A stretch of 64,000 bases of DNA from positions 10,247,309 to 10,311,308 of the forward strand of contig CM082591.2 of the NCBI GenBank assembly GCA_040954595.2. The letters are read 5' to 3'. This DNA comes from Balanoglossus misakiensis (lineage: Eukaryota > Animalia > Hemichordata). The notes below the pieces were generated by a model that was given only the letters and a program-made list of their open reading frames with translations, was not told the DNA's origin and ran no database searches. Below are positions 1,522 to 46,952 of the stretch, in pieces; positions within the stretch are counted from its first letter, which is position 1; each line of letters opens with the position of its first letter. The position numbers were made by a program, and so were the translations under genes.

Positions 1522-1825
1522 AGTGTTAAAGAAATCAAACGGTTTTGTTTTGGCCGGTAAACACCGATGGATTAACTCTTAAGTCCATCGTGCATCCAAA
1601 CGCAGTCGAGTCGGTTTGGTCATTGTTTATGCGACAGTAAATGCCAAATGTGACAGAAGCATCATATTAAAATATAGCTGCAAGCAGCGATAGCGGGCCC
1701 AAGCCGAAATAGCACATAGCAACATAGCAATAAGCAATACTGTTGGGTGCTTATTCGTGTGAAATATAAAGTTATGATGCTGTTAATTTATGTAGGAATT
1801 TTCATTCATGTCAGTTTAAGGTGGA

Positions 1826-2849: not shown

Positions 2850-3434
2850 TCGCGTCAAGGACACGGCGGTCCCATTGAGTTATTACACAAGAAAAAGTCT
2901 ACACCGGAGTATATGGCCATATACAGACAGAGACACACACACACACATAGCGAGAGATCAATGGGCAAGCACTGACTGACCCATAAGCTGCCAATGGCAT
3001 ATGTACTGTACATACACTAAATAGAACAGCTGGTCTCTTTAAAACTTAGCCAGTTATGTAATCATTCAAGGAATTTGCTGTGTAAATCAATCACACCGGG
3101 AACTTTTTGCCTAATTAAAGCAACTCAATAAAGTAAATACACACCACTGTGCAAAGCAATCTGACCAGTACTTCTTGAGTTGTTGAGTTTTGACCAAATT
3201 GACATTTTTCCAGCTAATTTGCATATTTTTGGCAATGACACCTTCATTTGAACGAGCTCCCATCTACAGCCCAGCCTGCATCTGCACACCAAATACCAAG
3301 GTGATACACGCAGTGGTTTTCAAGTGTTTGATGTGGACGGACGGACGGACATACATACATACATACATACATACATACAGACGCAACCGATCCCATAAGG
3401 TCCCATGGTATATAGGCCTATACCAATGGGACCT
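2850..3434 (-). mobile_element. Nested non-autonomous Helentron (HINE/DINE-1-like), ~585 bp
   Basis: Terminal palindrome aggtcccat...aatgggacct (3398-3434), (TACA)n/(GGAC)n microsatellite, inverted subTIR ggtcccattg (2868-2877) and small hairpin cgcgtc-aag-gacacg. It splits the A-run gtcgttaaaaa|aaacaaagc of the 242-bp repeat without a TSD. Confidence 0.88.
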
Positions 3435-3634: not shown

Positions 3635-6600
3635 CTACTGTGAGTGAAGGGTGAATGATGTGATGACGCGGCTGTGTATGTCATATGTAATGGAGAAGTC
3701 ATGAGTTTCAGTCAGGAAGGTGGATGCTATGTTATCAGAAGTGAAGAGTACGAGTGGGTTTCCTTGTGGTTGGCCGTAATGTTGGGGGTTCAATGTAGAT
3801 ATGTATGCTGTAAGTGTGGTTTTGTGAAAGTATAGTTCCAGGTATTCGTCATTGTGTTGTACTGTAATTGAACCGGTGAACTGGATGGGCATGTTTGTGG
3901 TATGTTGAGACGAGTGGCATTTTGTGCATTTGATCAGAGTTGGGAGTGTATCATTTGGGTATGGTATGGTTTGGTTGCAGTTGTGTTTTATACATGTCAG
4001 CGTTTTTTGGAATGAGCATAGGTGTGGTTTGGTTATCAGGGTGTTTGTGTTTGGGTCAGTGTAGTGAGTGGTGTAGTTTTGCAGTGTTGTGGTTGGTGTG
4101 ATTTTTGTGTTTGTGTGTGTGGATAAGTATTTTTGGCCGAGGTAAGATCTAACTGTGACTTCATTGAAACTGTATGATGTGTTAATGTGTAGGCTGTTGG
4201 TGAATGGCCCCCAAGCTGACAAGCGAATGGCTGCGGTGTTATCGGAAATTATGTTGTTTCTCATGGGAAGTGTTTTGTGTGTAGATTTTAAGCCATATTG
4301 AATATTGTCCTGTTGTATGATGTGTGCAGTGATGTTGACATGTTCGTAATCTTTTTTCATGTGGACTGTATTTAGGGGAGTGATGATGTTTGGTTGCTGA
4401 CAATGAGGGAATGTGCATGTATTGATGATTTTTATGGTTGTGTTAATTTGCAGTTTGATTTCGTCTTCGTCAAGTTTGTTAAAGCATGGTTGAAATTTTA
4501 TGTCATAGAGAGTAATGGGTAGTTTCCCTGTAGCTGCAATGTTGAGTGAGTCGTAATGTTTTTGTGCTGAAAATGATATGAATCTGATGTATGTGCTGGT
4601 GTTTGTTTGTAGCTGTCCGGTCAGTCTTGTGCCTGTCTGATGCAAGTTGTGGACATACCCAGTGGCTGTTGTTGGTTTGGTTGTTGCAGATGCTGGATTG
4701 TGAATTTGTAGCATTCTTCGTTTCATGGAAGGAGCTGGAAATATAGACAGTAATAGTGTGATTGTGTAGTGAATGTTAAGGGTGTGTATTTCAGTTGCTG
4801 AGAATATAGATAAGTGGAAGTTAAAGGGACAAAGTCCTCTCTTGCTGCTGTTTTAACATTAATTATGTTTGATGCAAAACACTGTTTATGTAATTCTACA
4901 AGTAGATATATAGTGAATTAATGTTTGACCATATACAACTTTTATGGTGCTTGTTGACATATTGAAATGATTAATTATTCTGTACTGTGTATTCATAGAG
5001 GCGAATTTGTACTGTTGTATGATATAAACGGGGTGGAAGTTGTGTGTTGTTGAACATTGCAGGTTCACTATATCCACATAGAATAACATAAATGGTGTGT
5101 TTGACAAAACATAATTACAGGAAAGGGAGAGACTTTGTTGCTGTAACGGGAACAGTATACACATGATGATTGACAATGAGGGCAACAGTGTATTTTGATG
5201 ACCGAGGGCACTACTAGTCGGAACTAAAATAGTGTTGTTTGGAAAACAGACTGGTTTGGTGTGACTGGCAGTCCCGAGGTCATCAAAAATACACTGTTCC
5301 CTAAATATGTCAGTCATCATGTGTTTTATAACACACCAAACACGACACACACCACATCCAGGCAACACTACCGGGCAGAAACAGATCGAACTGATGCCTT
5401 AGAGAACAGTGCGAAATGACTAAGGTCATGTAAGAGCATTTTGACGAATTGCAATCGAGGGTTCACTGCATGGTGGTTCACTGCATGGTGTGTTATGTTT
5501 TGCAACAAGTAAGAGTAGAAACTCTGCACACAACAAATTAGTATAAGCAGGTACTCATTGTTATGTGAAAGTGCCAACCCTAATCAACATTGCATCACCT
5601 ATGTGTGTGTAAAAACCATGGCTTCCCCGTTGCAATTTTGACGGTTTAGTCTCCTGACGAGTGACCTTAGTGACTAATGAAACAACATTGTAGAGATTAT
5701 TTACTGCCTATTGTTTTGCAATTACTGTGACTTTTTATTCTGGTCTGGTGAGATATTGAGCACTTTGTATGAGACTAGTTGAACCACATACGGCGTGAAC
5801 AGAAATGCATACAGAAATTATATCGGTATGATTATGGTAACTTGAGTTTGCGTTAATTGCTTTGAAGTTGTACTCACCATGTTCTGGTGCTGTACTGGTA
5901 CTGGGAAACAGTTGTCTTTTTGCTGTTGTAGATGCTGTTGAAAGGAATACATGTGTGTTAGGAGCTTGTTGGGATTGGGGTGTATACAAGAAACTGTTCA
6001 ATAGGAATGTGTCATTTGAATTGTGTGATAATAGTAATTGTGGAGCCCATGTTCTTGTTGTTGTGACTTTGGGATGTAAAGGAAAATGGTGTGTCTGCTT
6101 TTGGAATGGAAGGTTGCAGTGTGGATTGTATGCTGTAAGCATGTGACACCTGGTATAGTGTAAATCAGTGTGTTAACAAAATTGGATGTTGTTCATTGTT
6201 GTGGGATAAGAAATGACAGTGGCACATGTTGAGGTGAAGCCTAATTTTAAACTAGTATAGTTTGGTATGGGATGTAATTGAATGGAGTGAGATATACTGA
6301 AATCAATGAAGCCGGCAGAGCTGACACTGCTTGGATTATTTTCCTGATTTTATTTCCTTACTTAAAATGGTTCATATGTAAGGAAAGTGACAGGATTACA
6401 TGAACACCTTTTTGGACACATGACTGAAAGTGTATGTTGGAATTTAAAAATGCTATGTATTGAGGGAGTGCTGCATCGATTTAGTCAGTGTCTATAAAAA
6501 GAGTACATAGCTTTTATGGTATGTGTAAGCAGGAGATGATAAACTGATGCAAATAATACTAGAGATTTTCGAGGAAAGAGGATATATTTGAAGAATTTTA

Positions 6601-9600
6601 TGGAGGGGAAAATGTGGGAAATTTTGCAGGTGTAAGCGCTTTAAGAGGTCTAAGGAATTTGTGTAGCGTGTGTGGAAATCATATCGAGAGGTACATACCA
6701 TGTGAAGATGATGGTGGATTGCTGGCTTCAGTGGCTTGTATGTCCATGGTTTGTGTGGTAGTGGGCATTGTTACTGGACTGGAAGCTGTTCAGGAAATAG
6801 AGACATGTAGAAATTGTTGTCTATGTGGAAGCAATGGTGGATTTTAATGTCGAAAGAAATGTGAACAGTGTTGTTGCTTCTTGTTTGTGAAGCTAAGCCG
6901 AAACACTCTGTGTGATACGTCTGGTAGTATGGAACAAGGGAGATGTTCTTTGCGGGGAATCAGTGCTGAGTAAAATGTTATAGAATGATACTTACCATAT
7001 GTACATGATGGTGGATTGCTGTCTGCAGTGGCTTGCTTGCCCATGGTTTGTGTGAAAGGTGGTGTTGTAGCTGGCATTCCTATTAGAATGGAAGCTATTT
7101 AGGAGAAGAAAATGTTGAATATGTAATGTAGGTAAAGTTGATGATGAATAGGAATTTAAGGGACTTGCTAAATGCTCAGTTACGGTGTAATATGGTTGAA
7201 CTGTGAGTGACTTCCATTTTGGGGGTTATTACTTTAGTATGGTTGCGTTGTATGGATAACTGTACTTTTTGCAGAGCCATTGTGTACTATTCAGCATTGT
7301 TTTAAAATAAATGGGAATATGGACTTCACTTGAGAAGCTGAACACAGCGAAGATTTCATGAAGTTGTGCAAAGTAGAAGGGAGCGGAGTTGAAGCATGGG
7401 GGAATATAATACAGGGAAAAAAGTGTCAAAATCAGGATGACTAGTGGAGTCGAAATGTTAGTTATGTATTGTAAGGTTGGATGTTTAAAAAGGGAACTGG
7501 GGTGGAAAGGTTAGGACTGTATGGAAAGAAAAAGTTACATACACGGCCTTAAAGCTGATGTAGCTGTCAAATGTCACATATATTTTCCCGAAGTGAAATA
7601 GTTTAAATGTATTGCCTATGCTGTGAGAGCCTTATTATTAGGTGATATAACTTGCATTTCCATTATTTTGTTATCTCTTGGTAATGCATACCGTGATAGC
7701 TGATGTGTACTGTTTGTAAGGAAGCTGATTAAAGGGACAAAGTCTCTCTGCAGCTACCCCTTTTCCATTAATTATGTTTGATACAAGACACTGGTTGTGT
7801 TAATGTAAATGTGGATATAGAGTGAATCAATGATCAACCACACAAAACTTCCATCCCACTTGTATGGTATGAGAGTAAAAACTCGCCCGAAATGAATAAA
7901 TGGTAAAGAACAATTATTCATTTTGGCGAGTTTTTTCACTCTCCTGTCTATAAGAGGGATGGAAGTTGTGTGTGGTTGAATGTTCATTTGCTTTATATCC
8001 ACAAGTAGAATAACAAACAGCGTCTTGTATCAAATATAATTAATGGAAAAAAGGGCAGCGAGAGAGAGACTATGTCCCTTTAAATTGGTGTGGCACTGTC
8101 TGAATACATAGGATTTTCCAATGACTACATACTACGACAATTCCATATTTATTAGTGAGCTTATTTAGATTGAGTAATTTTAGTTGGGAAATAAAATCAA
8201 GAAAAGTATGGGAAAAAATATCAGCTGTAGAGGTTTTTATGAGAAACTGTTATTGGAAATAATAAAAATGTATAATACTTACATGTACTTGGTGTACATG
8301 GTAATGTAGGTGGTGGTGTGTCTGTAAATTTTAAAGATGAAAGAAGTATTGGGTGTTATAATAATACTTAATTTGTCAGGGCTTGCAGTGTACGCAAAGG
8401 GCGAAACAAAGTTGCATGAAAGTGTATGTGAATTATGTAGAACAAACAATAGACAAGGAGGGTTTCAATTAAGATGGCATTGCAGGAAAAGTTGTAATTT
8501 GGGCAACTTTGAGTTTTGTACATAAATTGGTAGGTGTAATACTGATCCACATTCGGACAAATTGCTTTTTGGTGGAAATGGTGCATAATCATTGGAAAGT
8601 AGCACTTTCCAGAATGAGTCCACAGCTGCAGAAATAGGTGTCAGCAATGCAAATTGTTGCTTTTACTAGTTTGCATTTTTGCTGCTTTGGACTACTTCAG
8701 AAGATTGTGTTTTCTGTGCATTGGCGAAATTTGCTGGAATTTTAACAAGAAATTGTGTATGACATATGTAGCAATATGAAAATATTTTTAGTCAATAAAG
8801 TGTCACTGGCAGTAATAAACTCTGATTCAACGTAAATTTGCTCAAATGTTCTAAAAATCTAACTTCCAAATGTTGCTTCCTTAATGGGAGCAGATAACAT
8901 CAAACGGAATTTTGGTATTTTTGCATGTGCACTGTAGTTTTGAATGATATATTAAGATGCATGATGCATGGTGAACTTTTTTACCTGATTTCAAGTGAAT
9001 GGCATAAGATAGTGGTACATACCATGTGAAGATGATGGTGGATTGCTGGGTTCAGTGGCTTGTATGTCCATGGGTTGTGTGGTAGTGGGCATTGTTACTG
9101 GACTGGAAGCTGTTGAGGAAATAGAGACACAGAGAAATTATTGTCTATGTGGAAGTAATGGTGGATTTTAATGTCGAAAGAAATGTGAACAGTGTTGTTG
9201 CTTCTTGTTTGTGAAGCTAAGCCAAAGCACTCTGTGTGATACGTCTGGTAGTATGGAACAAGGGAAATGTTCTTTGAGGGGAATCAGTGCTGAGTAAAAT
9301 GTTATAGAATGATACTTACCATATGTACATGATGGTGGATTGCTGTCTGCAATGGATTGTTTGCCCATGGTTTGTGTGAAAGGTGGTGTTGTAGTTGGCA
9401 TTCCTATTTGAATGGAAGCTGTCAAGAGAATAGAAATTTGTGAAATATGTGGTGTAATGGGAAGTGATGATGGATTGTAATTTGGAAAGTGTGAAGTGTG
9501 TTGGGTTTATTATCATTTGAGCTGTATACATTTTGAATCTAGAACCTTAAGGTGGCTTTGCATGAAAAGTTTTGATTTTTGCCAGTTTGTACTTTTTACA

Positions 9601-12600
9601 GAAATCGGTAGGTCTAATACTGATCCACATCCTGACTAATATGTCTTGGCGGAAATGGTTCATAATCAGCCAAAAATAGCACTTTTGTGAATGAGACACA
9701 TGTTAACAAATAGGTGTCAACAATGCAAATAACCGGTTTTCTCAGTTTGCATTTTTGCTGCTCTTGACAACTTCAGAGGAATTTAGCTTCGCTGTGTGTT
9801 GGCCGAATTTGCTCAAATTTTAACAGGGGATTGTGTATGACCCATCTTTTTGTTAGTTGATAAAGTGTCCATGCCGGGAATAAACTCAGATTCAGTACAA
9901 CTCACCATGAATGTGATCAAATTTTTCTGAAAATCTAACTTTCAAACGCTGTTACTCCTCAATGGAAGCAGATAACGCAAAACGAAATGACCGTTTTTTT
10001 TGCATGTGTACTGTAGTTGTGAATGATATATTAAGATGCATGATGCATGGTCAACTGTTTGCCTAATGTAAACTGAATGACATAATATCAAGATACGGGG
10101 TTTTTAACCCAAAAAGGGCACCATTATTGGGGATAAATAATATATGCAACTTAAACAGAAGTTCTGAAACTCAGCTGTCAAAATATATACGGTTTGTGGG
10201 GGTTTTAACGTTGTCTTTGATGAGAAATGGGCCTCTGAAAAAGTCTCGACGGTTTCATGCAATGCCACCTGAAAGTGGTGATGTTTGGTTAGTATTATTG
10301 TTTTCTGTATGAAGTGCACTTTGCTGGTGACATTTAAATCAATGTTCACTATTTTTGAAACAGGCAATTTTGAGAGAAGAGCATTGTCGTTGTTGTTAAA
10401 TGAAATGAATTGAAATGTGGAGCCTTTTTTGAGTAATGTGAATGGATTAATTGTCTATGGTGGCAAGTCTCGGTGCTTATGAATACATAAACTTTGTGTG
10501 TGTGGACACAAGCGACTGAAACGATTAATTCTCTGTGTTTATGAAATGCAAATAGTGTTGAGGAAACGTGTGGGATTTTTTTCCGAGTGTGACAGCGGTA
10601 ATATAGAATCACATGTGTATGTCGATAAGATGTTTACTTATACCTATGACATTTTAATATGGTCAATTATGCCGTGTTTAGAAATGTGGTTATTATAATA
10701 CTTACTAGGCGAAGGGAATGGAGTAGTTGATGGTAAAGGTGGTGGTGGAGGTAGTTGTGGTGTTCCTGTCAAATCTGCATGGTTAAAAAAATAGAAATGG
10801 TAGAGTAAATTGATTGGAAGTTAATTTGCATTAATGTATATAATTAAGCTATACTGGTATGAATTTCTGATCAAAATGTGGTTGTCATGGTTTTTGCAAT
10901 GTGGAAATCTGGTAGATTGGAAAAGTGTTGCAGCGTTGTAATCCTATGGCAAGTACACAAGTATCTTTAGTGCCACACGTGCCGTCAACGCCGCCGCAGC
11001 GGCTGCCCTAGGGTGGTGTTAATTTGTAAGTCCCACGTGTGAAAAGGTGAGAGCGGCCCTGCACCGCCCTTTTTTTGTGACGGTGTTGAGGGGTGGGATC
11101 TGGGTCGGGGCGCTGCACTAAACAGTGATTCAAATCACGTGTGAACAGAAACACTGCACTAAACGCCGATCTAAATGCACTATGCCGACGCGGTTTGTCT
11201 CATTAAGCGCTGCATTAAGCGTTGAGGTTCACTTTACTGAAACAATGGCCGAAGCAGTGTCTCAAGGCAACAATTGGAGTGACGCGGAAATGGCCAAGAC
11301 ACATACACAGGAATTGCAAACTCGACCTTCGACGACGATTTTGTAGCATGGACTGCAGTCTTCCAATCGCAACCTCCAATGAAAGGTTACCATAAACGGG
11401 TATGGTGTTATTGAAATGCCCATAAAATCGGCGTTGACGACGTGTAAAAAGCAAATTCAAGAGTACCATATACAGTAAACACACACTGCTGTGGACGCGC
11501 GTAGAGTGATGGCCCCGTCCCTTTTATACACATGTGAGTGCAAAAGTATTTATGTCGCTGATAAGAAATGTTTACAAACTTTTATAATCCCAAAAAGGGC
11601 GACCTAACCATGGAACGTGTGCAAGCGGCTATGGTCATGAAAGTTTCAGCAGTGCTAATGTGTTGTGTACACTACAAAATAATCCGTGCTGATTAATCCT
11701 CTGGCAACCATGCTACTTGTCACATGCTACCTGGCAGCTCAAGAAAGTGGTGGTAAGTTTCATGCAAATAGGCGTGCACGTACATTGTAGGTAGTTAACA
11801 GCATCAGAAAACCTCCCTTGAGGAGGTTATAATTAAAGTGTGAGTGTCTTGGTCAACACTTGTAGAGAAATATGTTGGTTGTTTTGGAGAGGCAATACCA
11901 GCCACACTTAGTCATTGTTATGACAATCTCTGTCTACCAAGAGCATTTGTGCAGAGGGTTTTCTTCATGTTTGAAATCGCTGTGAGAATTAAACTGTTTC
12001 CTGCAAAAATTCTGCTGCAATCAGATGACAAATTCATGCAAATACCGCTAATGTAGCTTAATGGGTTTTATTGTAAAGCATGGGGAGAAGATTGAAGCAT
12101 GTATCGTTGGTGAAGAAATTGTAAAATGTGGCAGCTGTAGGGGTTTAATAAAATGAGTAGTGACAATGCGGACATTGAATGGAAAACATCATGAGCGCAT
12201 TGGACTGTCTGCTGATTGTCTGCTGCTATAGATTTGAATGGGAATTACGGGTAGGTTGTTGGTGAAAATTTAGGGTTAGGTTACGGTTAAGGTATGACTG
12301 TATTTAAAATGACTGAATTGATTGAGTTTTATGAATGAAGTCAAGTTTTGTGCTGCGAACACCAGTAAATCTATAGCAGTATCTGCTACATTCACTGCAG
12401 GTAAACTATATTCAAATGTTAATGCTAACCATGTGTAGTAGAGAATGGTAGAGTCCTAGACACATAATGCCGATGCACACTGTGGGTTGACCTTAGTATG
12501 AATAGATTAGCTAAGTAAGGGTTTACAAGAAAGAAATGTTGTTTACTAAATAGAAATATAATAATTGAAATGAAATAAATAGGATGACTATGCCAAATGA

Positions 12601-13106
12601 TTGGTAAATATAAACAATTATAATAATGGACACATCCAAAAGTCCAGTATTATTTCTGTGGGTGTTAAGCACATTATTGTGTAAGTGTTGACTGCTGATT
12701 GAAATTTCCCCATTGAAGTCTGGGTGACTTGGAATTTTGGGAAATATTGCAGGATCTAAAGCAGAATTGGAACCTGAGAAAATTTTGTCTACTTTGGTAA
12801 GAGAAAGTTGATACTGAAACACAAATTGCGGTATTGTAGTTTGTATAATTTTGCGGAGTCATTGTATTTTTTGAATGCCACTTTCTGTAATATGTGATTA
12901 GCATGTTCAGATGATTGTTAGGGTGATTCAAGACGTCAGATTAAACAAGGCAGGCTTAGTTATATATCCATTTTAAGTTGGGAAAGTGTGGGTTTGTTAA
13001 ACATTTTGAAGAATTCAAGATTACTAATGATGTATAAGTACATACCTCTTGTTTTTCTCCGTGATGAAGTCTTGTGGGACGAGTGTGCAGAACCTTTGCT
13101 TGCCAT
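3635..13106 (-). CDS. Helentron-borne multi-exon gene, ~565 aa: S/T/P-rich repeat N-terminus + RPA-like OB-fold ssDNA-binding domains with Cys4 Zn ribbon. Exons 13106-13046, 10774-10706, 9418-9320, 9109-9023, 8321-8283, 7094-6996, 6785-6699, 5934-5878, 4734-3635
   Basis: All junctions are canonical (y)ag|...|gt(a/g)(a/t)gt and phase 1, and the joined frame is open from aaaacaATGG to the stop. The last exon has the OB-fold pattern VNITAHII...IISDNTAAIRLSAWG..F..VTVRSYLGQKYLST and C-x4-C...CTKC. The domain call is from motif recognition, and additional exons are possible. Confidence 0.72.
4821..5146. mobile_element. Degenerate copy of the TTAA/Kolobok-like MITE (another partial copy at 3459-3575)
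   Basis: Starts ttaaagggacaaagtc and ends gagactttgttgctgtaa; internal similarity to 7733-8079. Confidence 0.65.
7733..8079. mobile_element. MITE, 347 bp, long TIRs, TTAA TSD (Kolobok-like)
   Basis: TTAA-agggacaaagtctctct...agagagactatgtccct-TTAA; second copy at 31378-31724 in the opposite orientation. Confidence 0.88.
8469..10090. repeat. Two diverged intronic copies of a ~520-bp sequence (8469-9000, 9547-10090), probably an old TTAA-type element
   Basis: Shared blocks ggtagg..taatactgatccacat, aataggtgtca.caatgcaaat and gaatgatatattaagatgcatgatgcatggt. Confidence 0.65.
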
Positions 13107-13557: not shown

Positions 13558-15285
13558 GTGAGTGTAATTCGCTAACATGTCGAAGTTTTGAAAGTGGTAG
13601 TAATGGCCTTATCGGTGATTTTAACGAGTGGAAACCTGGGTGGTGACGATTGTGTTGTTGTAGTTTATCTAGCGGTAGTGTGATTTCGACGATATGAGAG
13701 CCGATGTCAGTTTAATTTGAGTTATATTTTCACACGTACAGAGGCAAGTCCAATACAATATGGCGGAGACCAAGTGTTTTGGAGAGTAGCTTACGCAATA
13801 GACTTACGCAATAATTTATGCTGACATGTCTGAGTTGTAAAAGTGGTATTAATGTTAATCAATTTATCGGTGATTTGGATGACTGGAAAGGTGGATGGTG
13901 GCGGTTGTGTAGTTGTAGTTGATCCGGCGGTAGTGAGATTAATTTTGATGATATGAGAGCCGATGTCAGTTTAATTTGAGTTATATTTAACACGTACAGA
14001 GGCACGTCCAATACAATATGGCGGCGACCAAGTGTTTTGGAGAGTAGCGCGTACGCAATAATTTATGCTGACATGTGTGAGTTTTAAAAGTGGTGTAAAT
14101 GTTAATCACTTTATCGGTGATTTGGATGTTGTGGTTTATCTTAGGAAAACAATGAATAAGTTGTAATATTTTTGTGTATTCTGTTAACAGATTACGCTGA
14201 ACAGATATATCTCAGTCTCAAGGTGAGTGTTTGATATTGTTTTTGACCATGACCTGAAGGGATTAAGGATATGGTTTTGAGCTGTGTTCAGGAATATTGG
14301 TGATATTAAAAGTTGTTTGACACTTTAAAAATGTTGGAAATACTGGTGAAATGATGTGCCATAATTGGTGTTTATTTGAATGTGTCTTTTTCTGTAAATG
14401 GGGGGGGGGGGGGGGGGCATTCCTGTGTTCATCATTGTTTTTTTTTTTTTGTACATATTAATCAGTGTGACAAAGATTTGGATTTGAATGTGTAGACATG
14501 GTTGATTAAAGTAATGCAAGTGTGATTTTGTTTGTTGTGAAATGATATTAATCTGTTGATGGTTGGCTATGAAAGTGATATGCATCATTGTTTTTTTCCC
14601 TGAGAGTTCTGTTGATTAATAATCGTATTTGTAGCTATGTAAATACTATTAACATACAGGGAAATTTGAAGGGCAGTTTCAATTAAATCTGGAAAGCTTT
14701 TTTGTGCAAGTTTCCCACAGTGTACACTTTGTGGGTATTTTGTGTATGTCTTCTTGAATCATACAAATTTTCTTAATTACGTTATCTGGTTTCTTTTGCA
14801 GTTTTTGGTCACACAACATATTTGATGGTAAGTGTTATAGATATAGCAGAAGATTTGAAGTGCATTGTAGTTTGTAGAGGTGAACTCAACATAGCTGGTC
14901 GAGAGCTTGTGTACTGTATGTATGGTGTACCAGGATTATTGATTCTATCCTGGGACATGGTTGGAATGAAAAATGTTGTGAGACAGTTGTAATGATAATG
15001 CCTAAGGTATGGTGTAGTTTGATGTCCATGAACAAAATAGACGTTTGGTGAGCAAAGCTGCTGTACAACATGTATATTTCATTTGTGTGGCAGGATTATT
15101 GATTGTAGCATGGGAGATGGTTTTATTATTTGTCAGGGTTGTATTAATGCGATTGAATGCTGAAACAAACACAAGGACAAGTAATACAAACACTGAAATG
15201 GGGAAATGATTGAAACGTGTGGAGTATTTCATCAACAATGAGATGGTAACTTCTGTGATGGTAATCATGTTGAAATATTTTTCAG
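13558..15285 (+). other. Spliced 5' leader of RepHel: exon ending 13557, mini-exons 14191-14222 and 14802-14827, acceptor immediately before ATG 15286
   Basis: aacag|attac...tcaag|gtgagt; ttttgcag|ttttt...gatg|gtaagt; atatttttcag|ATGCCT. Confidence 0.6.
13575..14128. repeat. ~248-bp tandem repeat (~2.3 copies) in RepHel intron 1
   Basis: acatgt..gagtt..aaaagtggt recurs at ~13575, ~13824 and ~14071; gatatgagagccgatgtcagtttaatttgag occurs twice. Confidence 0.85.
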
Positions 15286-18200
15286 ATGCCTCGTAAGAAG
15301 AACTGGAGGAACAGTGATGCGCAGAAGAAGCGGTTGGGTTTGGGTCGTGTCCCACCAACCAGTGATATTGTCACTCAGGGCCAATGTGTCCTGTTTGATC
15401 AAAACAATGCTAATGAAATGGAAAATGAATGTGGAAATTATGTCCTTCGGGATGCTAATAACTTGGAAAATGAATGTGATGGTGTCCTTCGGGATCTTGA
15501 TAACTTGCAAAATGAATCTGATGGTGTCCTTCGGGATCTTGATAACTTGCAAAATGAATCTGATGGTGTCCTTCGGGATCTAAATGACTGGCAAAATAAA
15601 TCTGATAATGCTCTTATTCAGGGTCATGGTGAACATGTTGGAGATTTTGAGGACGTAAGTAACACTATGGCACGTGATGTTGCACATGATGAAGGTGATC
15701 AAAGAGGAATTATTGTTGAGCATGAAGTTGAGGAGACTTATGTGATGGGAGAAGTTGATAATGTGAACATACCAAGAGTTACAGAAACAGAGTGTGTTGG
15801 AAATGATTCACAAGATGTTGGTACCGAAACCAGTGAATATTTATTTTGTCCAATTACGTCTGTGATACAGCATGAGTTATGTGACAAACTTCACTTACAT
15901 AATGAAAATAATGAGTCTGTAAATGTAATTGAGGGTGTCGAAGCTGGTGAACCCTGTAAAATAAAGTCAATTGTTGGTGATGGTAACTGTTTGTTTCGGG
16001 CGTTGTCATATGCTGTAAGTGGAAGTGAGAGAAATCACAGAGTGATGCGAAAAGCCATTGTTAATCACTTGAAAGTCAATGAGAATGCATATTTAGATTT
16101 CATAAAGGCAATGGGATATACATCAGTTGCAGACTACATTGGAAAGTCTAGAATGGATTGCCTTAACATTTGGGGTTCCGAAGTTGAAATCTTTGCAGGA
16201 GCGAACTTCTTGAATACTGACATATATGTCCATACCATTGGCAGATGGTGGAAACACCCTTGCACTCAATTTAATGAGAGGAATTGCAGTCGAGGTGATG
16301 GTATCTATATTTATCATCTAAATCAAAATCATTTTGATGTCGTTGAGTGTGTCAAAACACCTAACTTGGAAAGCTGTCACTGCACACATACTGATTGTGA
16401 TGTACAAGTGTCTAGTGTAAATGTGACTGACAACTGCAAATCTGTTACAAGTAGCGAGATATCTTCTTCACAAAGGAAGTGTCCAAATAAGACAGGAATT
16501 GTGAATGACAATTTGAATGCACTGGGGATTGGAACTGGAGTTAAGAGAAAAAGGCCGATGAGTACACGGCTGAGAAAGAAACTGAGAAGAGTGAAATATC
16601 AACAGAAACAAAGTATGGAAACTGCACCTGGTGCAAATGTTAAAACAAAGAGCAGTAGGGCTGATAGACAGCGTGCGTTGTATCATAGTAATTGTGAAAT
16701 CAGAGAGCAACTGAAATTGAAAAGTAAAAGAAAGTACCATGATGATATAACATACAAAGAGGTTAAGAAACAGAAATCGTCAGAGAAGTACCAGCAGGAC
16801 ATTTTGTTTCGTGAAGCCACAAAGGTGAAATTGTCAGAGAAGTACCGGCATGACACATTGTTTCGTGAAGCCACGAAGTTTAAGTTGGCTGAGAAGTACC
16901 GTCATGACACATTGTTTCGTGAAGCCACGAAGGTGAAATTGTCAGAGAAGTACCGACATGACACATTGTATCGTGAAGCAAAGAAGGGGAAATTTACAGA
17001 GAAATATGAGCATGACGATTTGTTTCGTGAAACAAAGAAGGTGAAATTGTCACAGAAGTACAGGCATGATGCATTGTTTCGTGAAACAAAGAAGGTGAAA
17101 TTGTCACAGAAGTACTGGCATGATGCATTGTTTCGTGAAACAAAGAAGGTGAAATTGTCACAGAAGTACCTACATGACACATTGTACCGTGAAGCAAAGA
17201 AAGGGAAATTTACAGAGAAATATGAGCATGACGATTTGTTTCGAAAATCTGAGAAAACAAGATTTTCACACAAATATCGGCACGATGAGGGATTTCGTGA
17301 CCAGAAAAAATGGGAATTTTGTGAACAATATAGAAAAATCCCCCTAGTCAGAGAAAATCAGCAGAGGCAATGTTCACAAAGGTACAAAGAAAACCCTGAC
17401 TATAGAGAGAGTGTATTGGAGAGAACGAGAAGACAAAGAGAACAGAAGAAAATGCAAAAGGGGAATTTAGATTATGTTGTTGCTGCTTTCCGAAATCAGG
17501 TATCAAATGGTCCTGACTGTGTGTGTTCTGTTTGCCACAGGCGACTTTTCAGAAAGCAAGTAATTCTTTGCAGAAGGGATAAGTATGCAAGTAAGACAGC
17601 ATCATGTGATATTGCTGAGAATTGCATTACAGAAGATTATGTACATAGATGTAGTTTACTATGTCCTGTTGAGTGCCCACTTGAGAATAGTGCAGCTAGT
17701 AAGATGTGGATTTGTTACACTTGTGACACTAAAATGTTGCGTGGGAAGATGCCAGTTCAAGCTGTTGCAAACAATCTGCATGTAAACCCAATTCCTTATG
17801 AATTGGAATGCCTGAATTCTCTAGAACAACATCTGATTGCATTACATATTCCATTTATGAAAATGCTTGCATTGCCAAAAGGTGGGCAGAATGGTGTTCA
17901 TGGACCTGTTGTATGTGTCCCATCAAATATTGAGAAAGCTACAAGTATTTTGCCACGAGGTGAATTGGATGATCAGATGATAAAGGTAAAACTGAAGCGG
18001 AAATTAACTTACAAGGGTTCTTATCAGTATCAGTTTGTAACTAAAAGCCACATTCAGAATGCATTGGATTACTTACAGAGAAATAACACGTGGTATAATG
18101 ATGTGAAATTCAATGTTGATTGGGAAAATAGTCTTGAGAAAACAAAAGATGAACCCTCGGAAATCAAAGATATTGATGCAGATGATGTGCCATCAGATGC

Positions 18201-21200
18201 AGATGATGGAAATGAGTCTGACAAAGAAACTAACGGAATATTCATGGATACATGCTTTCAGCCAGTCAATATAGCTCAAGATATTCTTGATTATCACTTT
18301 GATGCTATAATCTCTGTTGCTCCTGCAGAGGGTAATGTACCTGTTAGTGTTTTGATGGAGAAATTCAATGAAGCAAAGTGCTTTCCAGTGTTATTTCCAA
18401 CTGGGTCACCAACATTTCATGATGACAGAGAAATTAAAATTACTATAGGTCGATACTTGCAGAGTCGTTTGATGAATGCAAGCAATAGGTTTGCACAAAA
18501 TACAGACTACATATTCTATTCACAGTATTTGTCAGAAATTGAGCAGGTTGTATCTAATGTGTCTATTGCATTGAGAAAAGGAACTGCACATGCTTGTGGT
18601 AGAAAAGTAACATCTGATGTTTTGACTGACAGAGAATCTTTGCAAGAGATTTTGAAGTGTGATGAAGGTTACAAGTTTTTGAAACCTATCAGAGGGACAC
18701 CCCCTTACTGGCAAGCTACACAGAAAGATTTGTTTGCGATGATCAGACAGCTAGGTATACCAACATGGTTCTGTTCATTTTCTTCTGCTGATTTGCGATG
18801 GAAAGAACTGATTGAGACATTGCTTCGTGGTGAAGGTGATACACGTAATGCAGAAGATCTTGATTGGTCAGAGAAATGTGGTATTTTGAAGCGTAACCCA
18901 GTAACAGCTGCAAGAATGTTTGATCATCGGTTTCAATGTTTTGTGAAAGATGTCATTATGTCACCAGCCAATCCTATTGGCAAAATCAAAGATTACTTTT
19001 ATCGAGTAGAATTCCAACAACGTGGGTCACCCCACACTCACTGCTTATTTTGGGTTGAAAATGCACCCAGAGTAGACAAAGAGTCTGATGATGAAGTGGT
19101 TGATTTTGTTGACAGATATGTTACATGTGAAATGCCATCATCTGACAATGATGAAGAATTACATGACATTGTGAAGTCAGTTCAGAAACACAGCACACGT
19201 CATTCAAAATCTTGCAAGAAGAAAAATACTAAATGTAGATTTAATTTTCCACGGCCACCATCACAACAAACATTTGTATGCCGCCCTGTTGACAGTGTAG
19301 TGAATAGAGTACCAGAAAATCTAGAAACCACAGAGAGTCGCGAAGCATTTGGAATTGCCGTTTCACAGATGATTGTTTCACCAGTGGAGCAAAAGATGGC
19401 TACAAATCTTCTAGAGAAAGTGTGGGTGGCAATGAATGATAAGGAGAAAGAGTATGATACCATAGATGACTTATTTGCTGAAGTTGATATATCTCAGGAA
19501 GCCTATGAGAGAGCACATTCTATTGTTTCCAAAAAGACAAGTATAGTTATGAAACGTCAGCCTAGTGATGTGTGGGTAAACCAATACAATGCTTGTCTTC
19601 TGCGTTGCTGGAATGCAAATATGGATATCCAGTTTGTTGTTGATGCTTATGCATGTGTTGTTTATATTGTATCATACATTTCCAAGGCAGAAAGAGAGAT
19701 GGGTTTACTTCTGGAGCACGCACAGAGAGAAGCTAACAAGGAAGGAAATATGGATGCTAAATCTGCATTGCAACAGTTGGGAAGTGTATATTTGCACAAC
19801 AGAGAAGTAAGTGCCCAGGAAGCTGTATATAGAGTGTGTGGATTGAAATTGAAGCAATCATCTCGAAAAGTTCAGTTTATTCCAACTGGAGAGAATCCTA
19901 TCAAAATGAGTTTACCATTTGCTGCAATAAAAAACAAAATGAAGGGAAATGAGGTCGATGAAGAAAGCATCTGGATGCATAGTATTGTTGACAGATACAA
20001 GAACAGACCAAATGGGATAGATTTTGATAACATGTGTCTTGCTACATTTTGCTCAGAATACAGAATAGTGTCAAAATCAGAAGTTATGAATGTCAATGAT
20101 GAGAAACGACAGAGTCCTCTAGTAAAGTTACAAAATAATGCTGGCTATATGCAAAAGAGATCACGAACTGAACCAGCTGTCATCAGATATGCAAGATTCT
20201 CAGTGACGAAATATCCAGAGAAGTATTACCGCAGTATGTTAGAACTCTTTCTTCCACACCGGGTTGATTCACAACTGAAACCTAGTGGTTTTGAATCCTA
20301 TGAGGATTTCTATCGTGTTGGTGCAGTGAAATGTGGATCTGAATCTGTAGAAAAAGTGAAGGACATAGTGGAAAGAAACAAAGCACTGTATGAAAAAGAG
20401 GCTGATGCTGTTGATATGGCTGAAGAATTCCTTGGTGGGAATAATGAACCACTGGAAGATGCATGGGCACAAATCTGCCCAGAAAATGAATTAGACAGAT
20501 TGGAATGTATTGAGGAAGGCAAAGAATGCAATGACGATGATCATGGAGATGAAACAGATGATATTCCAGAGTTGGTGGCAAAAGCGCAAGGTGATTGCAG
20601 TGTAGAGATTGCTACTTCGACATCAAGAGCAGAGATTGCAGCAATGTGTAGATCATTGAACAAAGAACAAGCTGAAGTGTTCTATAGTGTCAGACAGTGG
20701 TGTTTGGATAAAAGCAATGGGAAAAATCCAGAGCCTTTTTATTTATTTGTGAGTGGTGGTGCTGGCACTGGGAAAAGCCATTTGATCAAGACGTTGTATC
20801 ATGAAGCCAAACGAATTCTAGCTCGTGTATTGCCAAACCCAGATGAAATCTCTGTAATGCTCACAGCTCCAACGGGTGTAGCTGCATTTAATATACAAGG
20901 AGAAACACTGCATCATGCATTTTCAATAGCAGTAGACTCAAAGCTGCCGTATCAGCCACTGCATGAGGAAAAGATAAACAGTCTGCGTTCAAAACTTGGA
21001 AATGTGGAAATTTTAATAATAGATGAAATTTCTATGGTGGATAAAAAGTTATTGCACTACGTTCACGGAAGATTAAGACAACTCAAACAACGCTCAAGTC
21101 AGGCACCATTTGGAAATGTCAGCGTAATTGCTGTTGGTGATTTTTACCAACTTCCACCTGTGAAAGGAAGTCCACTATGCATAGACAATGATGTCATTAG

Positions 21201-23301: not shown

Positions 23302-24276
23302 TAACCAGGTTTTACTATAGTTCGCCAACGGCAATTAATTGGGAAATGACGAAATTAACAGGCGCACACCTGGGACCAATAAGTTGCCCAGGGCGACAAT
23401 TTGGCTGCATGTATATAAAACACCTACTTTGATGCAAGCGTCACGTCATGAGCGTGATCAATAAATAATTGACGCAGTCGCCTGAACACGCACATGATCG
23501 CTGCCCTAGACGCTGATGCCGGTGGACGAGCTTTCGATGTCGTGAAGACATTCATCATCTCAGATGCCATCTACATGGCGAAAGAGTCGTGGGACTATGT
23601 CACGGCGCAGACACTTGTTGGGTGCTTTCGCAAAGCCAGCTTCTCGGATTTGGACTCTGTGGTGACCGACGCGATGAATTCGACGCACTGCACTTGCCGA
23701 TGTCCCCACGCCAAATGACACGACGACCGAGGAATTCACCTGTTTACGTCGAGGTGGACAGCGCTGTTGAGGTCAACGGTGAGCTGTCCGATGCAGAATT
23801 GAGAACGCCGTGTTTGCTGTAGCTCCAGAAGCAAAGATCAACGCACCATCGACTTGTGTCTCCAAGAGCGGCTTGTCTTCAGTCTGGTGTTATTCAATAT
23901 TTATTGTATTTGTCTTTGATATTTTTACATGATTTCTCTTGTAAGACTAATAGAAAAAAGGCGACACTTTATTTCAAGAAAGGTACAGTAATCGTTCATC
24001 TGTACATGTCACCCATGTCAATCACACTCTAACAATGGCCCTAAGTTATTTACACTTGAATAGGCATTTGTATCAATCAGGTGGACGTCAGTTTCGCTGC
24101 AAGATTTTACCTCCTCTTTTTCGTTTATTTGTAAGAATCTTTGGTGAATCGTACATGTTCTATTTTACATGTCATGGCCGGAAATTTAATTTAAAAATCC
24201 GAAGCAGTTGCCAACCAGCCAAAAAGTCGCCCATGAACGATTTCTTGGATGGGCGAACTATCAGTTAAACCCAGTA
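23302..24276 (+). mobile_element. pogo/Tigger-like DNA transposon relic nested in the Helentron 3' region
   Basis: Peptides DAIYMAKESWDYVTAQTLVGCFRKASF and YVEVDSAVEVNGELSDAEL resemble a Tigger transposase C-terminus. Degenerate TIRs ggttttactatagttcgcc / ggcgaactatcagttaaacc with flanking TA. Confidence 0.6.
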
Positions 24277-24653: not shown

Positions 24654-26720
24654 TCACCTGAGGTCACCCGAAATTTGGGCCCAGAAAAAGGAGCCCAAAT
24701 AAATTAATCTAGGTTCAATAAAAACCACACCTTAGCCCTATTGGTGCACATGGAATTGGTATGCACATAATTAATGAAATCAGCAGGTGTCACAGGTGAC
24801 CTCCAAATTTGACTTTTCAAATCTGTCCCATACCTGTAAACGCCATGGCTATACCTTCTGTGGATGGCAAAATATGAGGAAATAGGTCGAAGGTCACCCG
24901 ATGTCACCCGAACTATGGGCATAAATTTTTCACCCCATACCGGTCCATGTTAAACAAAAAACGAAACCCTTGTCCTATTGGTTGGTCTGTAATGAGGTAT
25001 GGACATAATTAATGACTGAAGCAGGTGTCCACAGGTGACCCGAACATTTGGCTGTTCATTTTAGTCCCAAACTCCAAACGCCAAGTCTGTACCTACTCTG
25101 GGTGCCCAGATAAAAAAAAAGTAAGTCAAAGGTCACCTGAGGTCACCCAAAATTTGGGCAACAAATTTTGACCCCATACTGGTCCATTGGCCACAAGAGC
25201 AAAACCTCTAGCCCTAATAGTTACCCCGGAATTAGGTATGCACATATTTAATGACATAAGCAGGTGTCACAGGTGACCCCAACTGAGGCTTTTCAATTGT
25301 AGTCCCAACCATGCAAACGCGAAGTCTGTACCTGCTGAGGATGCCAAAGTATAGCAAAGTAGGTCAAATGTCACCTGAGGTCACCCAAAATTTGGGCAAC
25401 AAATTTTGATCCCATACTGGTCCATAGGCCACAAGAACAAAACCTCTACCCCTAATAGTTACCCCGGAATTAGGTATGCACATATTTAATGAGATAAGCA
25501 GGTGTCACAGGTGACCCCAACTTAGGCTTTTCAATTGTAGTCCCAACCATGCAAACGCCAAGTCTGTACCTGCTGAGGATGCCGAAATATAGGAAAGTAG
25601 GTCAAAGGTCACCTAAGGTCACCCAAAATGATGGCAAGAAATTTTGACCCCATAGTGGTCCATGTCTCACAAGAACAAAACCTCTAGGCCTATTAGGTAG
25701 CCCGGAATTATGTATGCACATAATTAATGAGAAAAGCAGGTGTCACAGGTGACCCCCAACTTAGGCTTTTCAATTGTAGTCCCAACCATGCAAACACCAA
25801 GTCTGTATCTGCTCAGGATGCCGAGATATAGGAAAGTAGGTCAAAGGTCACCTAAGGTCACCCAAAATGTGGGCAAGAAATTTTGACCCCATAGTGGTCC
25901 ATGTCTCACAAGAACAAAACCTCAAGGCCTATTAGGTAGCCCGGAATTAAGTATGCACATAATTAATGAGAAAAGCAGGTGTCACAGGTGACCCCCAACT
26001 TAGGCTTTTCAATTGTAGTCCCAACCATGCAAACACCAAGTCTGTACCTGCTCAGGATGCCGAGATATAGGAAAGTAGGTCAAAGGTCACCTAAGGTCAC
26101 CCAAAATGTGGGCAAGAAATTTTGACCCCATAGTGGTCCATGTTCAACAAAAACCAAACCTTAACCCTATTGGTTAGCCTGGAATAAGCTATGCACATAA
26201 TTAATGAGATATGCAGGTGACCCCCATTTTGGCTTTTCAATTTTAGTCCCAACCCTCCAAACGCCAAGTCTGTACCTGCTCTGGATGCCAAGATATGGTA
26301 AAGTAGGTCAAAGGTCACCTGAGGTCATACAAAATTTGGGCAAGAAATTTTGACCCTATACTGGTCCATGTTCAACAAAAAGCAAACCTATAGCCCTATT
26401 GGTTAGCTAGGAATTAGGTATGCACATAATTAATGAGATATGCAGGTGTCACAGGTGACCCCCATTTTGGCTTTTCAGTTTTAGTCCCAACCCTCCAAAC
26501 GCCAAGTCTGTACCTGCTCTGGATGCCGAGATATAGGAAAGTAGGTCAAAGGTCACCTGAGGTCACCCAAAATGTGGGCAAAAATGTTTGACCCTATACT
26601 GGGCCATGTCCCACAAGAATGAAACCTCTAGCCCTCTTAGTTAGCCCAGAATTAGGTATGCACATAATTAATGAGTTAAGCAGGTGTTACAGGTGAGCCT
26701 AAAATTTTGCCTTTTATTTT
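24654..26720. repeat. Subterminal satellite of the Helentron, ~239-bp monomer x ~9
   Basis: The a(g/t)gtcac anchor occurs at 24891, 25130, 25368, 25606, 25845, 26084, 26312 and 26550 (one unit ~11 bp shorter). Confidence 0.95.
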
Positions 26721-27500
26721 GGTGCCATTATGCTCACTGACCAATAGACAGTCACTGTACAGGACTATTGCACAGACCAGAATTCCACAATAAGACGTCG
26801 ACATAGCTTAACCATAGAGGTATAAGTAAAGGTATAAATTTAATAAAAAAATTAATATAAAAAAATCTGTCGATTTTTCATATTTTTTTTTCGCATAAAA
26901 TTATTGACAAATGCTAGGCTAGCTGCACACCAAAGTTGGAGATGATCGGCCGAACAGATTTTGAGATATGTATGCATATTTATCGAAAATAATATGTGGT
27001 CATAGCTTTACAATGTAAAGTATAGGCCCATGGCTTGGGCAAAAAATATGAAAAATAATACTTAAAAATCTTCTTCTCAAAATTGACATGGCCTATGGCC
27101 TTGACATTTGGCATGTAGGACACTGACCACATGGTCCGCGAAAATCGCTAAAAGAATTTAGATATCTCCATTAATATGCAAATTAGGCCCTTTTGAAAAC
27201 TTTGCCCATATATGGTCATCAGGTCACGTGACTAATTAAACATTCACAAGGGTACTGCACTAGCTCTCATTGGCCTGCACCATTGTGCCAAGTTTGAAAT
27301 CTGTAGGTTTAGCCGTTTTCCAGATCTAGCTGGCCGAAAAAACTACACAAGAAAAAAAAAAGAAGAAGAAGAAGAAGTAGAAGAAAAACCAGGATAATAA
27401 CAATAGGGCCCAAGCGCTGCATGCGCTTGGGCCCTAATGAGATAGAATACACAAACAAACAAACATACGAATAAACAAACAGGCAAACAAACAACCATTA

Positions 27501-46899: not shown

Positions 46900-46952
<53 letters not shown>

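What the first reader, a model, noticed from the sequence alone, without database searches (positions are those of the whole stretch)
3635..13106. Hidden 9-exon accessory gene inside the Helentron: disordered S/T-P repeat arm + KRQLF motif + RPA-like OB folds
Seen: the 363-aa ORF is only the last exon, with an acceptor 8 nt before its ATG. Eight upstream minus-strand exons (61, 69, 99, 87, 39, 99, 87, 57 nt) all have canonical sites and phase 1, giving one ~565-aa open frame. It has a basic start (SSRRKTR), many TP/SP sites, AKRQLF, then an OB-fold-like region with a Cys4 Zn ribbon. Known: some Helitrons carry RPA70-like ssDNA-binding genes, and (K/R)xLF is the cyclin-docking motif. Inference: this is a self-encoded SSB for rolling-circle replication that could be CDK-regulated, coupling transposition to the cell cycle. 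Gene finders would probably miss these micro-exons.
Basis: partly seen in the sequence, partly recalled or inferred. Interest (0 to 1): 0.8.

Follow-up and report, generated by a model that had tools for sequence, protein, structure and literature searches.

The report
Helentron's spliced stand-alone RPA-like gene
A rolling-circle transposon carries a second gene, likely spliced from nine exons, whose product is predicted to fold like the DNA-binding core of replication protein A and likely coats the element's single strands; such genes are known, and the proposed cell-cycle control is possible but not shown.

Summary
The nine exons lie where stated: all introns GT..AG, phase 1, one open 565-aa frame. 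The eight donors are the only eight GTRWGTAY sites on that strand (1.7 expected). Relatives show the same phase-1 acceptor just before the OB exon. No RNA was available. The last exon folds as RPA70 DBD-A/B/C with a conserved Cys4 ribbon (pLDDT 93). It lacks DBD-F and the trimer-forming C-terminal helix, so it is likely a stand-alone SSB. It lies divergent to an intact OTU-RepHel-endonuclease gene between Helitron2-type ends; 8 of 22 homolog loci abut a RepHel. Helentron RPA/Ssb-like_OB genes are already described (PMC4067079, PMC11417382). The CDK reading is weak for this copy: 9 S/T-P sites versus 12.9 expected, no full CDK site, duplicated arm exons drifting 1 synonymous to 6 replacement. 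It is stronger family-wide: homolog N-tails are enriched in S/T-P-x-K/R (15 of 50, 2.6 expected) and RxL-like motifs (7 of 50, 1.4 expected). Verdict: new variant of a known accessory gene; cell-cycle gating is a testable lead.

The parts
13046..13106 (-). Exon 1: ATG in strong context (A at -3, G at +4), basic SSRRKTR patch, phase-1 donor
10706..10774 (-). Exon 2 (69 nt, Pro/Thr-rich, symmetric phase 1)
9320..9418 (-). Exon 3 (99 nt, repeat type A)
9023..9109 (-). Exon 4 (87 nt, repeat type B; 71% like exon 3 with a frame-keeping 12-nt indel)
8283..8321 (-). Exon 5 (39 nt)
6996..7094 (-). Exon 6 (99 nt, copy of exon 3; block 6687-7157 is 92% identical to 9011-9483)
6699..6785 (-). Exon 7 (87 nt, copy of exon 4)
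5878..5934 (-). Exon 8 (57 nt) with KRQLF at 5920-5906 (RxL-like motif and/or first half of a bipartite NLS)
3635..4734 (-). Exon 9: 363-aa frame from ATG 4726. OB1 about 4678-4412, OB2 about 4390-4079, OB3 about 4054-3644 with Cys4 ribbon at 3994-3917; ends after the last strand, no C-terminal helix
15274..22734 (+). Intact 2486-codon frame (ATG 15286): OTU, DUF6570, Helitron Rep, PIF1 helicase, AP-endonuclease; divergent to the RPA-like gene
1669..1704 (-). Likely 3' end of the element: ATIR at 1704-1695, hairpin at 1688-1677, ending ATATTTT
   Evidence: layout as in PMC3627910 and PMC5148889 (passages)
27404..27437 (-). Likely 5' end of the element: 13-bp hairpin containing the matching ATIR; AAG-rich run just inside
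24752..26696 (.). 238-bp tandem array (8.2 copies); one partial copy also at 1825-1996 beside the other end
7729..8083 (.). MITE-like insertion in intron 5 (90% like 31374-31731); an older relative sits in intron 8 (4818-5127). Neither interrupts an exon

Best explanation
This is likely the Helentron's own single-stranded-DNA-binding gene: nine exons, likely spliced, would give a protein whose last exon is predicted to fold as RPA70 DBD-A/B/C, and which likely coats the strand peeled off by the element's RepHel during rolling-circle transposition, without the host RPA32/RPA14 subunits. Shown: the exon chain and open frame, the predicted fold, the conserved Trp/Tyr/Cys residues, and the position beside an intact RepHel between Helitron2-type ends. 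Inferred: expression, ssDNA binding, and independence from RPA32/14 (no C-terminal helix) and from DBD-F partner binding (no DBD-F). The 200-aa arm is the family's normal phase-1 leader, lengthened by tandem duplication of symmetric micro-exons. Most of it is likely a neutral disordered spacer. Its basic ends (SSRRKTR; KR..KRR) likely serve nuclear import, possibly tuned by cyclin/CDK.
For: Exon chain. Family architecture: best acceptor before OB1 is phase 1 in 14 of 16 scored homolog loci (22 loci; 5 not scorable; L007 set aside; the 2 misses are one frameshifted copy, L012/L013), which is 4 of 5 lineages. Short ATG exons ending in phase 1 lie upstream in L001, L004, L008, L017 and L019, picked by eye among other donors; L004 has an extra 33-nt symmetric exon. 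L007 lacks exactly the predicted 526-nt intron of L006. Fold: the profile hits Sulfolobus SSB (E 1e-16) and RPA70 (E 2e-15, three stretches); AlphaFold pLDDT 93; top Foldseek hits are 9pd4_N (E 8e-15; an entry listed for the RPA70 sequence) and RPA trimer chain 4gop_C (E 4e-14); VIA aligns model 14-363 to U. maydis RPA70 190-608, Z 13.1, rmsd 15.2, 317 aligned. W172 is W in 98% of 129 homologs and aligns to RPA70 W361; Y195 is aromatic in 92% of 127 and aligns to F386; the four Cys are 97% conserved. 63 of 84 homologs that reach the last strand end within 9 residues of it; the RPA C-terminal helices are essential for the trimer (PMC8329085, passage). Linkage: 8 of 22 homolog loci (5 lineages) have RepHel directly upstream; in L004 it carries OTU and DUF6570.
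Against: No transcript or binding data. Duplicated arm exons differ at 7 of 186 nt (1 synonymous, 6 replacement) against 10 of 210 in the intron between them, so there is no sign of protein-level constraint. The arm is not significantly similar to the arm of the close relative P0004 (P 0.15 and 0.27 against shuffles). The fold model depends on the alignment: the single-sequence model had pLDDT 34. The last exon alone has no significant Pfam hit. 14 of 22 homolog loci show no RepHel, 7 of them despite 1.9 kb or more upstream. The linked homologs are tandem downstream of an endonuclease-less RepHel, unlike this divergent layout. That the 25.8-kb interval moves as one unit is not shown. The L007 intron loss has 5 nt of microhomology and could be a deletion or an assembly effect.
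Confidence: 0.7

Rival explanations
1. One reading: KRQLF docks cyclin A/E-type complexes, which phosphorylate the upstream S/T-P sites and gate import, ssDNA binding or stability, tying transposition to S/G2. This adds to the best explanation rather than replacing it.
For: KxLF arises in 0.5% of arm shuffles. K at -3 and R at -2 fit the basic preference described for RxL motifs (PMC12232547, passages). All 9 arm S/T-P sites lie N-terminal to the motif in a disordered chain, a layout compatible with docking-assisted multisite phosphorylation (PMC4230602, passages). In 50 homolog N-tails (of 129 rows), S/T-P-x-K/R occurs in 15 (2.6 expected), [KR]x[LI]x?F in 7 (1.4) and [KR]xLF in 3 (0.4). C-tails have 0 of 21 for the first two motifs, and the enrichment holds when basic runs are kept intact. 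The CDK-type sites fall on several separate branches, including this protein's clade (P0001, P0003/P0004).
Against: This protein has no full CDK site and fewer S/T-P than chance. Only 3 of 50 tails hold both motif kinds. The coral-type homologs have leaders of only 2-9 residues with no such motif. Tails are related, and 5 of 50 look like intron read-through. S/T-P-x-K/R next to basic runs also fits NLS regulation or SPKK-type DNA binding (recalled). RepHel carries two KxLF-type strings as well.
Confidence: 0.25
2. Exons 1-8 are spliced but untranslated, or are not used, and the protein starts at the ATG 8 nt into exon 9 (363 aa), matching the intronless 358-aa RPA of the mite Helentron.
For: An in-frame ATG follows the acceptor. 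The close relative P0003 is annotated from the equivalent Met. The arm drifts neutrally. The mite Helentron RPA is described as 358 aa with no introns (PMC4067079, passage).
Against: All seven internal exons have lengths divisible by 3 and are open in phase 1. The old exon 3/4 duplication kept frame through a 12-nt indel. The exon-1 ATG has a strong context and the inner ATG a weak one. The arm's S+T+P content (55%) exceeds every one of 2000 nucleotide shuffles (mean 35%, max 46%). P0004, nearly identical to P0003 over the OB domains, is annotated with a long S/T/P/K arm.
Confidence: 0.12
3. The gene is a captured or domesticated host-serving OB protein, or lies in a different nested element, and has no role in this RepHel's transposition.
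For: Self-nesting Helentrons are reported elsewhere in this genome (unchecked earlier notes). The 238-bp array and the skew-free right arm could be a host HINE. 14 of 22 homolog loci show no RepHel.
Against: Both genes lie in one G>C-skewed domain from about 1800 to 23300 whatever their strand. No second perfect hairpin/ATIR pair was found at the inner borders. The left 238-bp copy has drifted in the same C-losing direction as the core (seven non-independent alignments). Homologs abut RepHel in 5 lineages.
Confidence: 0.08
4. The protein replaces RPA70 inside a host RPA trimer, acting as a mimic or a poison.
For: Same domain order and Cys4 ribbon as RPA70 DBD-A/B/C.
Against: The model ends in a strand, and 63 of 84 homologs have no room for the trimerisation helix.
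Confidence: 0.05

Closest known systems
Helentron (HLE2) RPA / Ssb-like_OB accessory genes (Thomas et al. 2014, PMC4067079; HELIANO, PMC11417382)
   Same: RPA70-like OB gene in a separate ORF of an HLE2 with OTU, DUF6570 and endonuclease. HELIANO finds RPA upstream of RepHel in HLE2, and Ssb-like_OB and HIN almost only in HLE2. Ssb-like_OB is the commonest Pfam hit among the homologs (26 of 130). Nematostella Helentrons have the same content of Rep, helicase, EN, OTU and RPA (supplementary table S3). The mite RPA is 358 aa, like exon 9.
   Different: The mite gene is described as intronless. In what I read, nothing describes a micro-exon leader, the missing trimer helix, or CDK/RxL-like motifs.
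Eukaryotic RPA70 (RPA1), DBD-A/B/C
   Same: Three OB folds in order, Cys4 ribbon in the third, aromatic residues aligned to W361 and F386 (their base-stacking role is recalled).
   Different: 8-15% identity; no DBD-F and no C-terminal three-helix-bundle helix; a disordered S/T/P arm instead.
Plant Helitron RPA (PHRPA, Mothra; PMC4683698)
   Same: Multi-exon RPA-like gene in a Helitron whose small exons were missed by annotation (4 exons re-annotated to 8); can occur without RepHel.
   Different: HLE1, downstream of RepHel, probably an independent capture (PMC11417382). No direct comparison was run here.
Baculovirus LEF-3 (PMC13712923)
   Same: Self-encoded three-OB SSB of a mobile replicon, working with its own helicase; top viral fold hits (E 2e-8).
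   Different: TM about 0.3 and about 10% identity. Helicase escort is shown for LEF-3 only. An analogy, not membership.

Membership tests
Helentron / HLE2 element | Rep and Pif1 helicase in one ORF with C-terminal AP-endonuclease | tested here: met
   Pfam Helitron_like_N E 1e-32, PIF1 9e-28, Exo_endo_phos 6e-9 in one 2486-codon frame
Helentron / HLE2 element | DUF6570 marker domain; OTU often present | tested here: met
   DUF6570 E 8e-21, OTU 2e-8; marker per PMC11417382
Helentron / HLE2 element | 8-15-bp asymmetric TIRs, 5' hairpin, 3' ATIR 20-30 bp from the end upstream of a hairpin | tested here: met
   10-bp ATIR at 1695 and 27425-27434, hairpins at 1677-1688 and 27404-27436, each unique in the window. 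RepHel runs opposite to the ends, as in Helitron-1_DR (PMC3627910)
Helentron / HLE2 element | TT insertion site confirmed by an empty site; both genes move as one unit | not testable with these tools
   T-rich flanks fit, but no genome is held and no second copy was found
RPA70-like SSB (DBD-A/B/C) | Three tandem OB folds | tested here: met
   (4gnx_C aligned over model 14-363); predicted model
RPA70-like SSB (DBD-A/B/C) | C4 zinc finger inside the third OB | tested here: met
   C245, C250, C267, C270 (exon-9 numbering) each 97% conserved; profile aligns to RPA70 478-567
RPA70-like SSB (DBD-A/B/C) | Binds ssDNA | not testable with these tools
   Inferred from fold and conserved aromatic residues
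Canonical RPA1 subunit of the host trimer | N-terminal DBD-F OB domain | tested here: not met
   The N-terminus is a 54% S/T/P low-complexity arm; only 7 of 129 homolog rows have 70 or more residues before OB1
Canonical RPA1 subunit of the host trimer | C-terminal helix for the three-helix bundle | tested here: not met
   Model ends in strand 354-360 plus 3 residues; 63 of 84 homologs end within 9 residues
RxL-docked CDK substrate | RxL motif with basic residues at -3 to -1 in a disordered region | tested here: met
   KRQLF in exon 8; 0.5% in shuffles; disorder judged from composition only
RxL-docked CDK substrate | Cluster of CDK consensus sites | tested here: not met
   0 full sites; 9 minimal sites versus 12.9 expected
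RxL-docked CDK substrate | Motif conserved in homologs | tested here: inconclusive
   Enriched but patchy (7 of 50; 15 of 50 for full CDK sites); arm not alignable to P0004
RxL-docked CDK substrate | Cyclin binding and phosphorylation | not testable with these tools
   Needs bench work; no cyclin sequence was on hand for a complex prediction

The most novel reading that the evidence does not exclude
Helentrons across marine animals encode a 'stealth' RPA70 stripped of its partner-recruiting DBD-F and of its trimer helix. Its spliced N-terminal leader carries CDK sites and cyclin-docking motifs, so the element shields its own ssDNA from host RPA signalling and licenses rolling-circle copying only in S/G2. 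The leader is tuned by duplicating phase-1 micro-exons.
Probability: 0.2. Interest if true: 0.72.

Novelty: new variant of a known kind. Interest (0 to 1): 0.42.

Why it matters
Helitron RPA-like genes have been known for years, but in the papers I read their role is only proposed. This locus offers an apparently complete 25.8-kb Helentron with both genes intact, so the question can be tested directly. It suggests that ORF-only annotation (about 360 aa, 'no introns') may miss a spliced leader in many family members. It also gives two concrete predictions: independence from RPA32/14, and family-wide CDK/NLS motifs in the leader. If the leader does gate transposition to S/G2, that would be a cell-cycle switch encoded by a eukaryotic rolling-circle element. 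If not, this is an ordinary member with an elongated neutral arm.

Tried and rejected
No whole genome is held, so other copies, empty sites and dN/dS across copies could not be examined. Sequencing-run search: no RNA holder was listed; this is no evidence either way, and no reads were laid. Word-index homolog search with exon 9 found 0 of 798 candidates; with alignment A1, 2 of 3446. The single-sequence fold was useless (pLDDT 34). Viral contigs: no relative of RepHel or of the OB family. No look-alike among earlier findings by sequence or relatives or by the first word search. Rejected: 'many TP/SP sites' as a signal; purifying selection on the repeat exons; sequence homology of the arm to P0004; HIN-200, MCM or POT1 identity (they share OB folds, but RPA70 ranks first and spans all three domains). 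One search used a filter that dropped 4 tails (three bearing the motif); it was redone and both results are given. The tree is the quick version, 77 rows with cores of 250 aa or more, and the window protein's composition is atypical. The context strings for RepHel motifs were printed with a wrong offset and are not used. No complex prediction was run. Literature searches (listings) showed no paper on exon structure or CDK/cyclin motifs of Helentron RPA genes; the library lacks most subscription papers, and HELIANO's supplementary domain table was not seen.
Full report
Observation. Reading the minus strand and scanning for AG..GT exons of the stated lengths recovered all eight upstream exons. 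Joined by coordinates they give 1698 nt, phase 1 at every junction, and 565 aa with one terminal stop. The eight donors are 8 of 8 GTRWGTAY sites on the sense strand between 4735 and 13100, against 1.7 expected from the rest of the window and 1 on the antisense strand; the pattern was chosen after seeing them and resembles the U1 complement (recalled). A blind caller returned the seven internal exons exactly, while 3 of the other 17 strong donor hexamers gave lengths divisible by 3. The exon-1 ATG has A at -3 and G at +4; the inner ATG has neither. MITE-like insertions lie in introns 5 and 8 and in no exon. Splicing was not observed directly.

The last exon. Alone it has no significant Pfam hit and a weak hit to Sulfolobus SSB (E 0.003). 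A full HMMER scan found 136 relatives at 21-37% identity; 129 were aligned with it. The profile hits archaeal SSB (E 1e-16) and RPA70 (E 2e-15, three stretches including the zinc-finger domain). Among the 130 rows, Pfam gives Ssb-like_OB to 26, REPA_OB_2 to 17 and Rep_fac-A_C to 9. The ESM Atlas points to unnamed animal clusters and RPA-type families, though the recognition score was just under its bar. AlphaFold with the alignment gives pLDDT 93. Foldseek ranks RPA70-containing entries first. VIA aligns residues 14-363 to U. maydis RPA70 190-608 (Z 13.1, rmsd 15.2, 317 aligned) and 17-225 to human DBD-A/B (Z 14.1, rmsd 7.2, 202 aligned). The best viral matches are baculovirus LEF-3. W172 (98% of 129) and Y195 (aromatic in 92% of 127) align to RPA70 W361 and F386; F52 (F/Y in 97% of 72) is probably the DBD-A counterpart (inferred). 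C245, C250, C267 and C270 are each 97% conserved. Two RPA70 parts are absent: DBD-F, and the C-terminal helix that PMC8329085 (passage) calls essential for the trimer. The model ends three residues after its last strand, and 63 of 84 homologs end within 9 residues. I infer a stand-alone SSB.

Context. A 2486-codon frame at 15274-22734 (+) holds OTU, DUF6570, Rep, PIF1 and AP-endonuclease, divergent to the RPA-like gene. A 10-bp ATIR pair with hairpins at 1677-1704 and 27404-27436 is unique in the window and matches the Helitron2 layout of PMC3627910 (passage) read on the minus strand. RepHel is thus inverted relative to the ends, as reported for some elements. Both genes share one G>C-skewed domain from about 1800 to 23300. 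C is rare on the + strand at four-fold sites of both genes (0.09 in RepHel; G 0.08 in the sense strand of exon 9). This explains the protein's extreme Thr/His content (higher than all 119 homologs of 200 aa or more) and part of the arm's composition. Whether the whole 25.8 kb moves as one unit is untested. A metagenome scan with a tighter sub-family alignment gave 22 loci. RepHel lies directly upstream, same strand, in 8 of 22 (five lineages) and was not found in the other 14; in L004 it has OTU and DUF6570 but no endonuclease. Linkage was tested only for this sub-family, which is distant from the window protein.

The arm. The homolog loci repeat the architecture: one large OB exon behind a phase-1 acceptor in 14 of 16 scored loci (4 of 5 lineages; the miss is a frameshifted copy; L007 set aside; 5 loci not scorable). 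Short phase-1 ATG exons lie upstream, picked by eye, and L004 has a further 33-nt symmetric exon. L007 lacks precisely the predicted 526-nt intron of L006, though 5 nt of microhomology allow other causes. An annotated Lineus protein in the window protein's clade (P0004) has a long S/T/P/K arm ending in an RxL-like string before the equivalent Met, but the arms do not align better than shuffles. In the window the arm grew by duplication: exons 3-4 and 6-7 lie in a 92%-identical block, and exons 3 and 4 are 71% alike with a frame-keeping 12-nt indel. The recent copies differ at 1 synonymous and 6 replacement sites, about the intron's rate. Frame and splice sites are kept; the residues are free to change.

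CDK and cyclin. In this protein S/T-P occurs 9 times in the arm against 12.9 expected, and no S/T-P-x-K/R exists. KxLF appears in 0.5% of shuffles and a looser RxL pattern in 8%. KR and a KRR 16 residues later also fit a bipartite NLS (consensus recalled). Across 50 homolog N-tails (last 45 residues; 79 of 129 rows had no usable tail), S/T-P-x-K/R is in 15 (2.6 expected), [KR]x[LI]x?F in 7 (1.4), [KR]xLF in 3 (0.4) and K[KR]x[KR] in 10 (1.8). C-tails have 0 of 21 for the first two, and keeping basic runs intact does not remove the signal. An earlier pass with a faulty filter (46 tails) gave the same CDK-site result but no KxLF enrichment. The tails are related, several patterns were tried, only 3 of 50 hold both motif kinds, and the coral-type leaders are too short to hold any. 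So the family leader is often a basic, proline-directed phosphorylation and import module; true cyclin docking is a lead of about one in four for this copy. PMC12232547 and PMC4230602 (passages) give the motif rules. PMC5876387 (term search and passages) models a displaced strand in Helitron transposition and does not mention RPA, S phase or the cell cycle.

Mechanism. RepHel nicks an end and peels one strand (known for Helraiser; inferred here). The element's own three-OB protein would coat that strand, as LEF-3 does for baculoviruses (PMC13712923, passages). Lacking DBD-F and the trimer helix, it would do so without the host RPA32/14 or DBD-F partners (inferred). The basic ends of the arm would take it to the nucleus.

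Comparison and novelty. Helentron RPA genes are known: PMC4067079 (passages, section 8 and supplementary table S3) describes a 358-aa intronless RPA in mite Helentrons and RPA plus OTU in Nematostella. PMC11417382 (passages and section 22) finds RPA upstream of RepHel and Ssb-like_OB and HIN domains in HLE2. PMC4683698 (passages) shows a plant Helitron RPA re-annotated from four to eight exons. My six searches on this point (listings) showed nothing on the micro-exon leader, the missing trimer helix or CDK-type motifs, within a library that lacks most subscription papers. Earlier AI notes report similar RPA-like genes elsewhere and Helentron self-nesting in this genome; they are leads, not support.

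Verdict. Observation confirmed; interpretation partly supported; a new variant of a known accessory gene; interest 0.42.

Noticed in passing
window 1800-23300: Strong G>C skew on the + strand across both oppositely oriented genes (up to +0.66 per 300 nt), ending where the core ends. It suggests strand-asymmetric, replication-linked mutation with + as the exposed strand, although the terminal hairpins read 5'-3' on the minus strand. The homolog loci show little skew.
   Followed up: partly
window 13571-14128: Two 247-bp repeats between the divergent genes, each with a CCGCCATAT string resembling a YY1 site (motif recalled): candidate bidirectional promoter.
   Followed up: no
window 14802-14827 and 15285: Candidate 5'-UTR exon of RepHel and a splice acceptor directly before its ATG at 15286, seen by eye.
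   Followed up: no
window 16773-17300 and 15441-15606: In-frame 54-bp (18-aa, basic) and 42-bp (14-aa, acidic) tandem repeats inside the RepHel N-terminal region.
   Followed up: no
window 23312-24265: Insertion with imperfect 14-bp terminal inverted repeats and TA flanks inside the element's right arm; looks like a pogo/Tigger-type deletion derivative (family recalled).
   Followed up: partly
window 2850-3434: Small HINE-like element on the minus strand (T-run, hairpin, GTAT microsatellite, subterminal repeat) just beyond the RPA-like gene's stop, next to a 242-bp tandem repeat at 2185-2849.
   Followed up: no
window 8469-9010 and 9547-10088: A 559-nt intronic segment present in introns 2 and 4 at 74% identity: an older duplication or a dispersed repeat.
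   Followed up: no
L006 1533-2058 versus L007 1105-1109: L007 equals L006 but lacks exactly the 526-nt phase-1 intron while keeping the upstream one: precise intron loss, partial splicing or an assembly effect.
   Followed up: partly
L001, L003, L004, L008, L016-L019: HLE2-type elements without endonuclease that carry the OB gene downstream of RepHel in tandem, unlike the upstream position reported for RPA in HLE2.
   Followed up: partly
window 50421-51446 (-): Open 341-codon tyrosine-recombinase-like frame (weak Pfam hits, E 0.02-0.08) lying between duplicated segments (48183-49305 and 51244-52372 give the same translations); possibly a DIRS-like element.
   Followed up: no
window 34311-36164 (-) and 56427-58133 (+): Two long reverse-transcriptase frames (RVT_1 E 2e-34 and 2e-31), LINE-like.
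   Followed up: no
window 37000-54000 (-): Host-gene exons that look by eye like HYR- and SRCR-type repeats (names recalled, not scanned).
   Followed up: no
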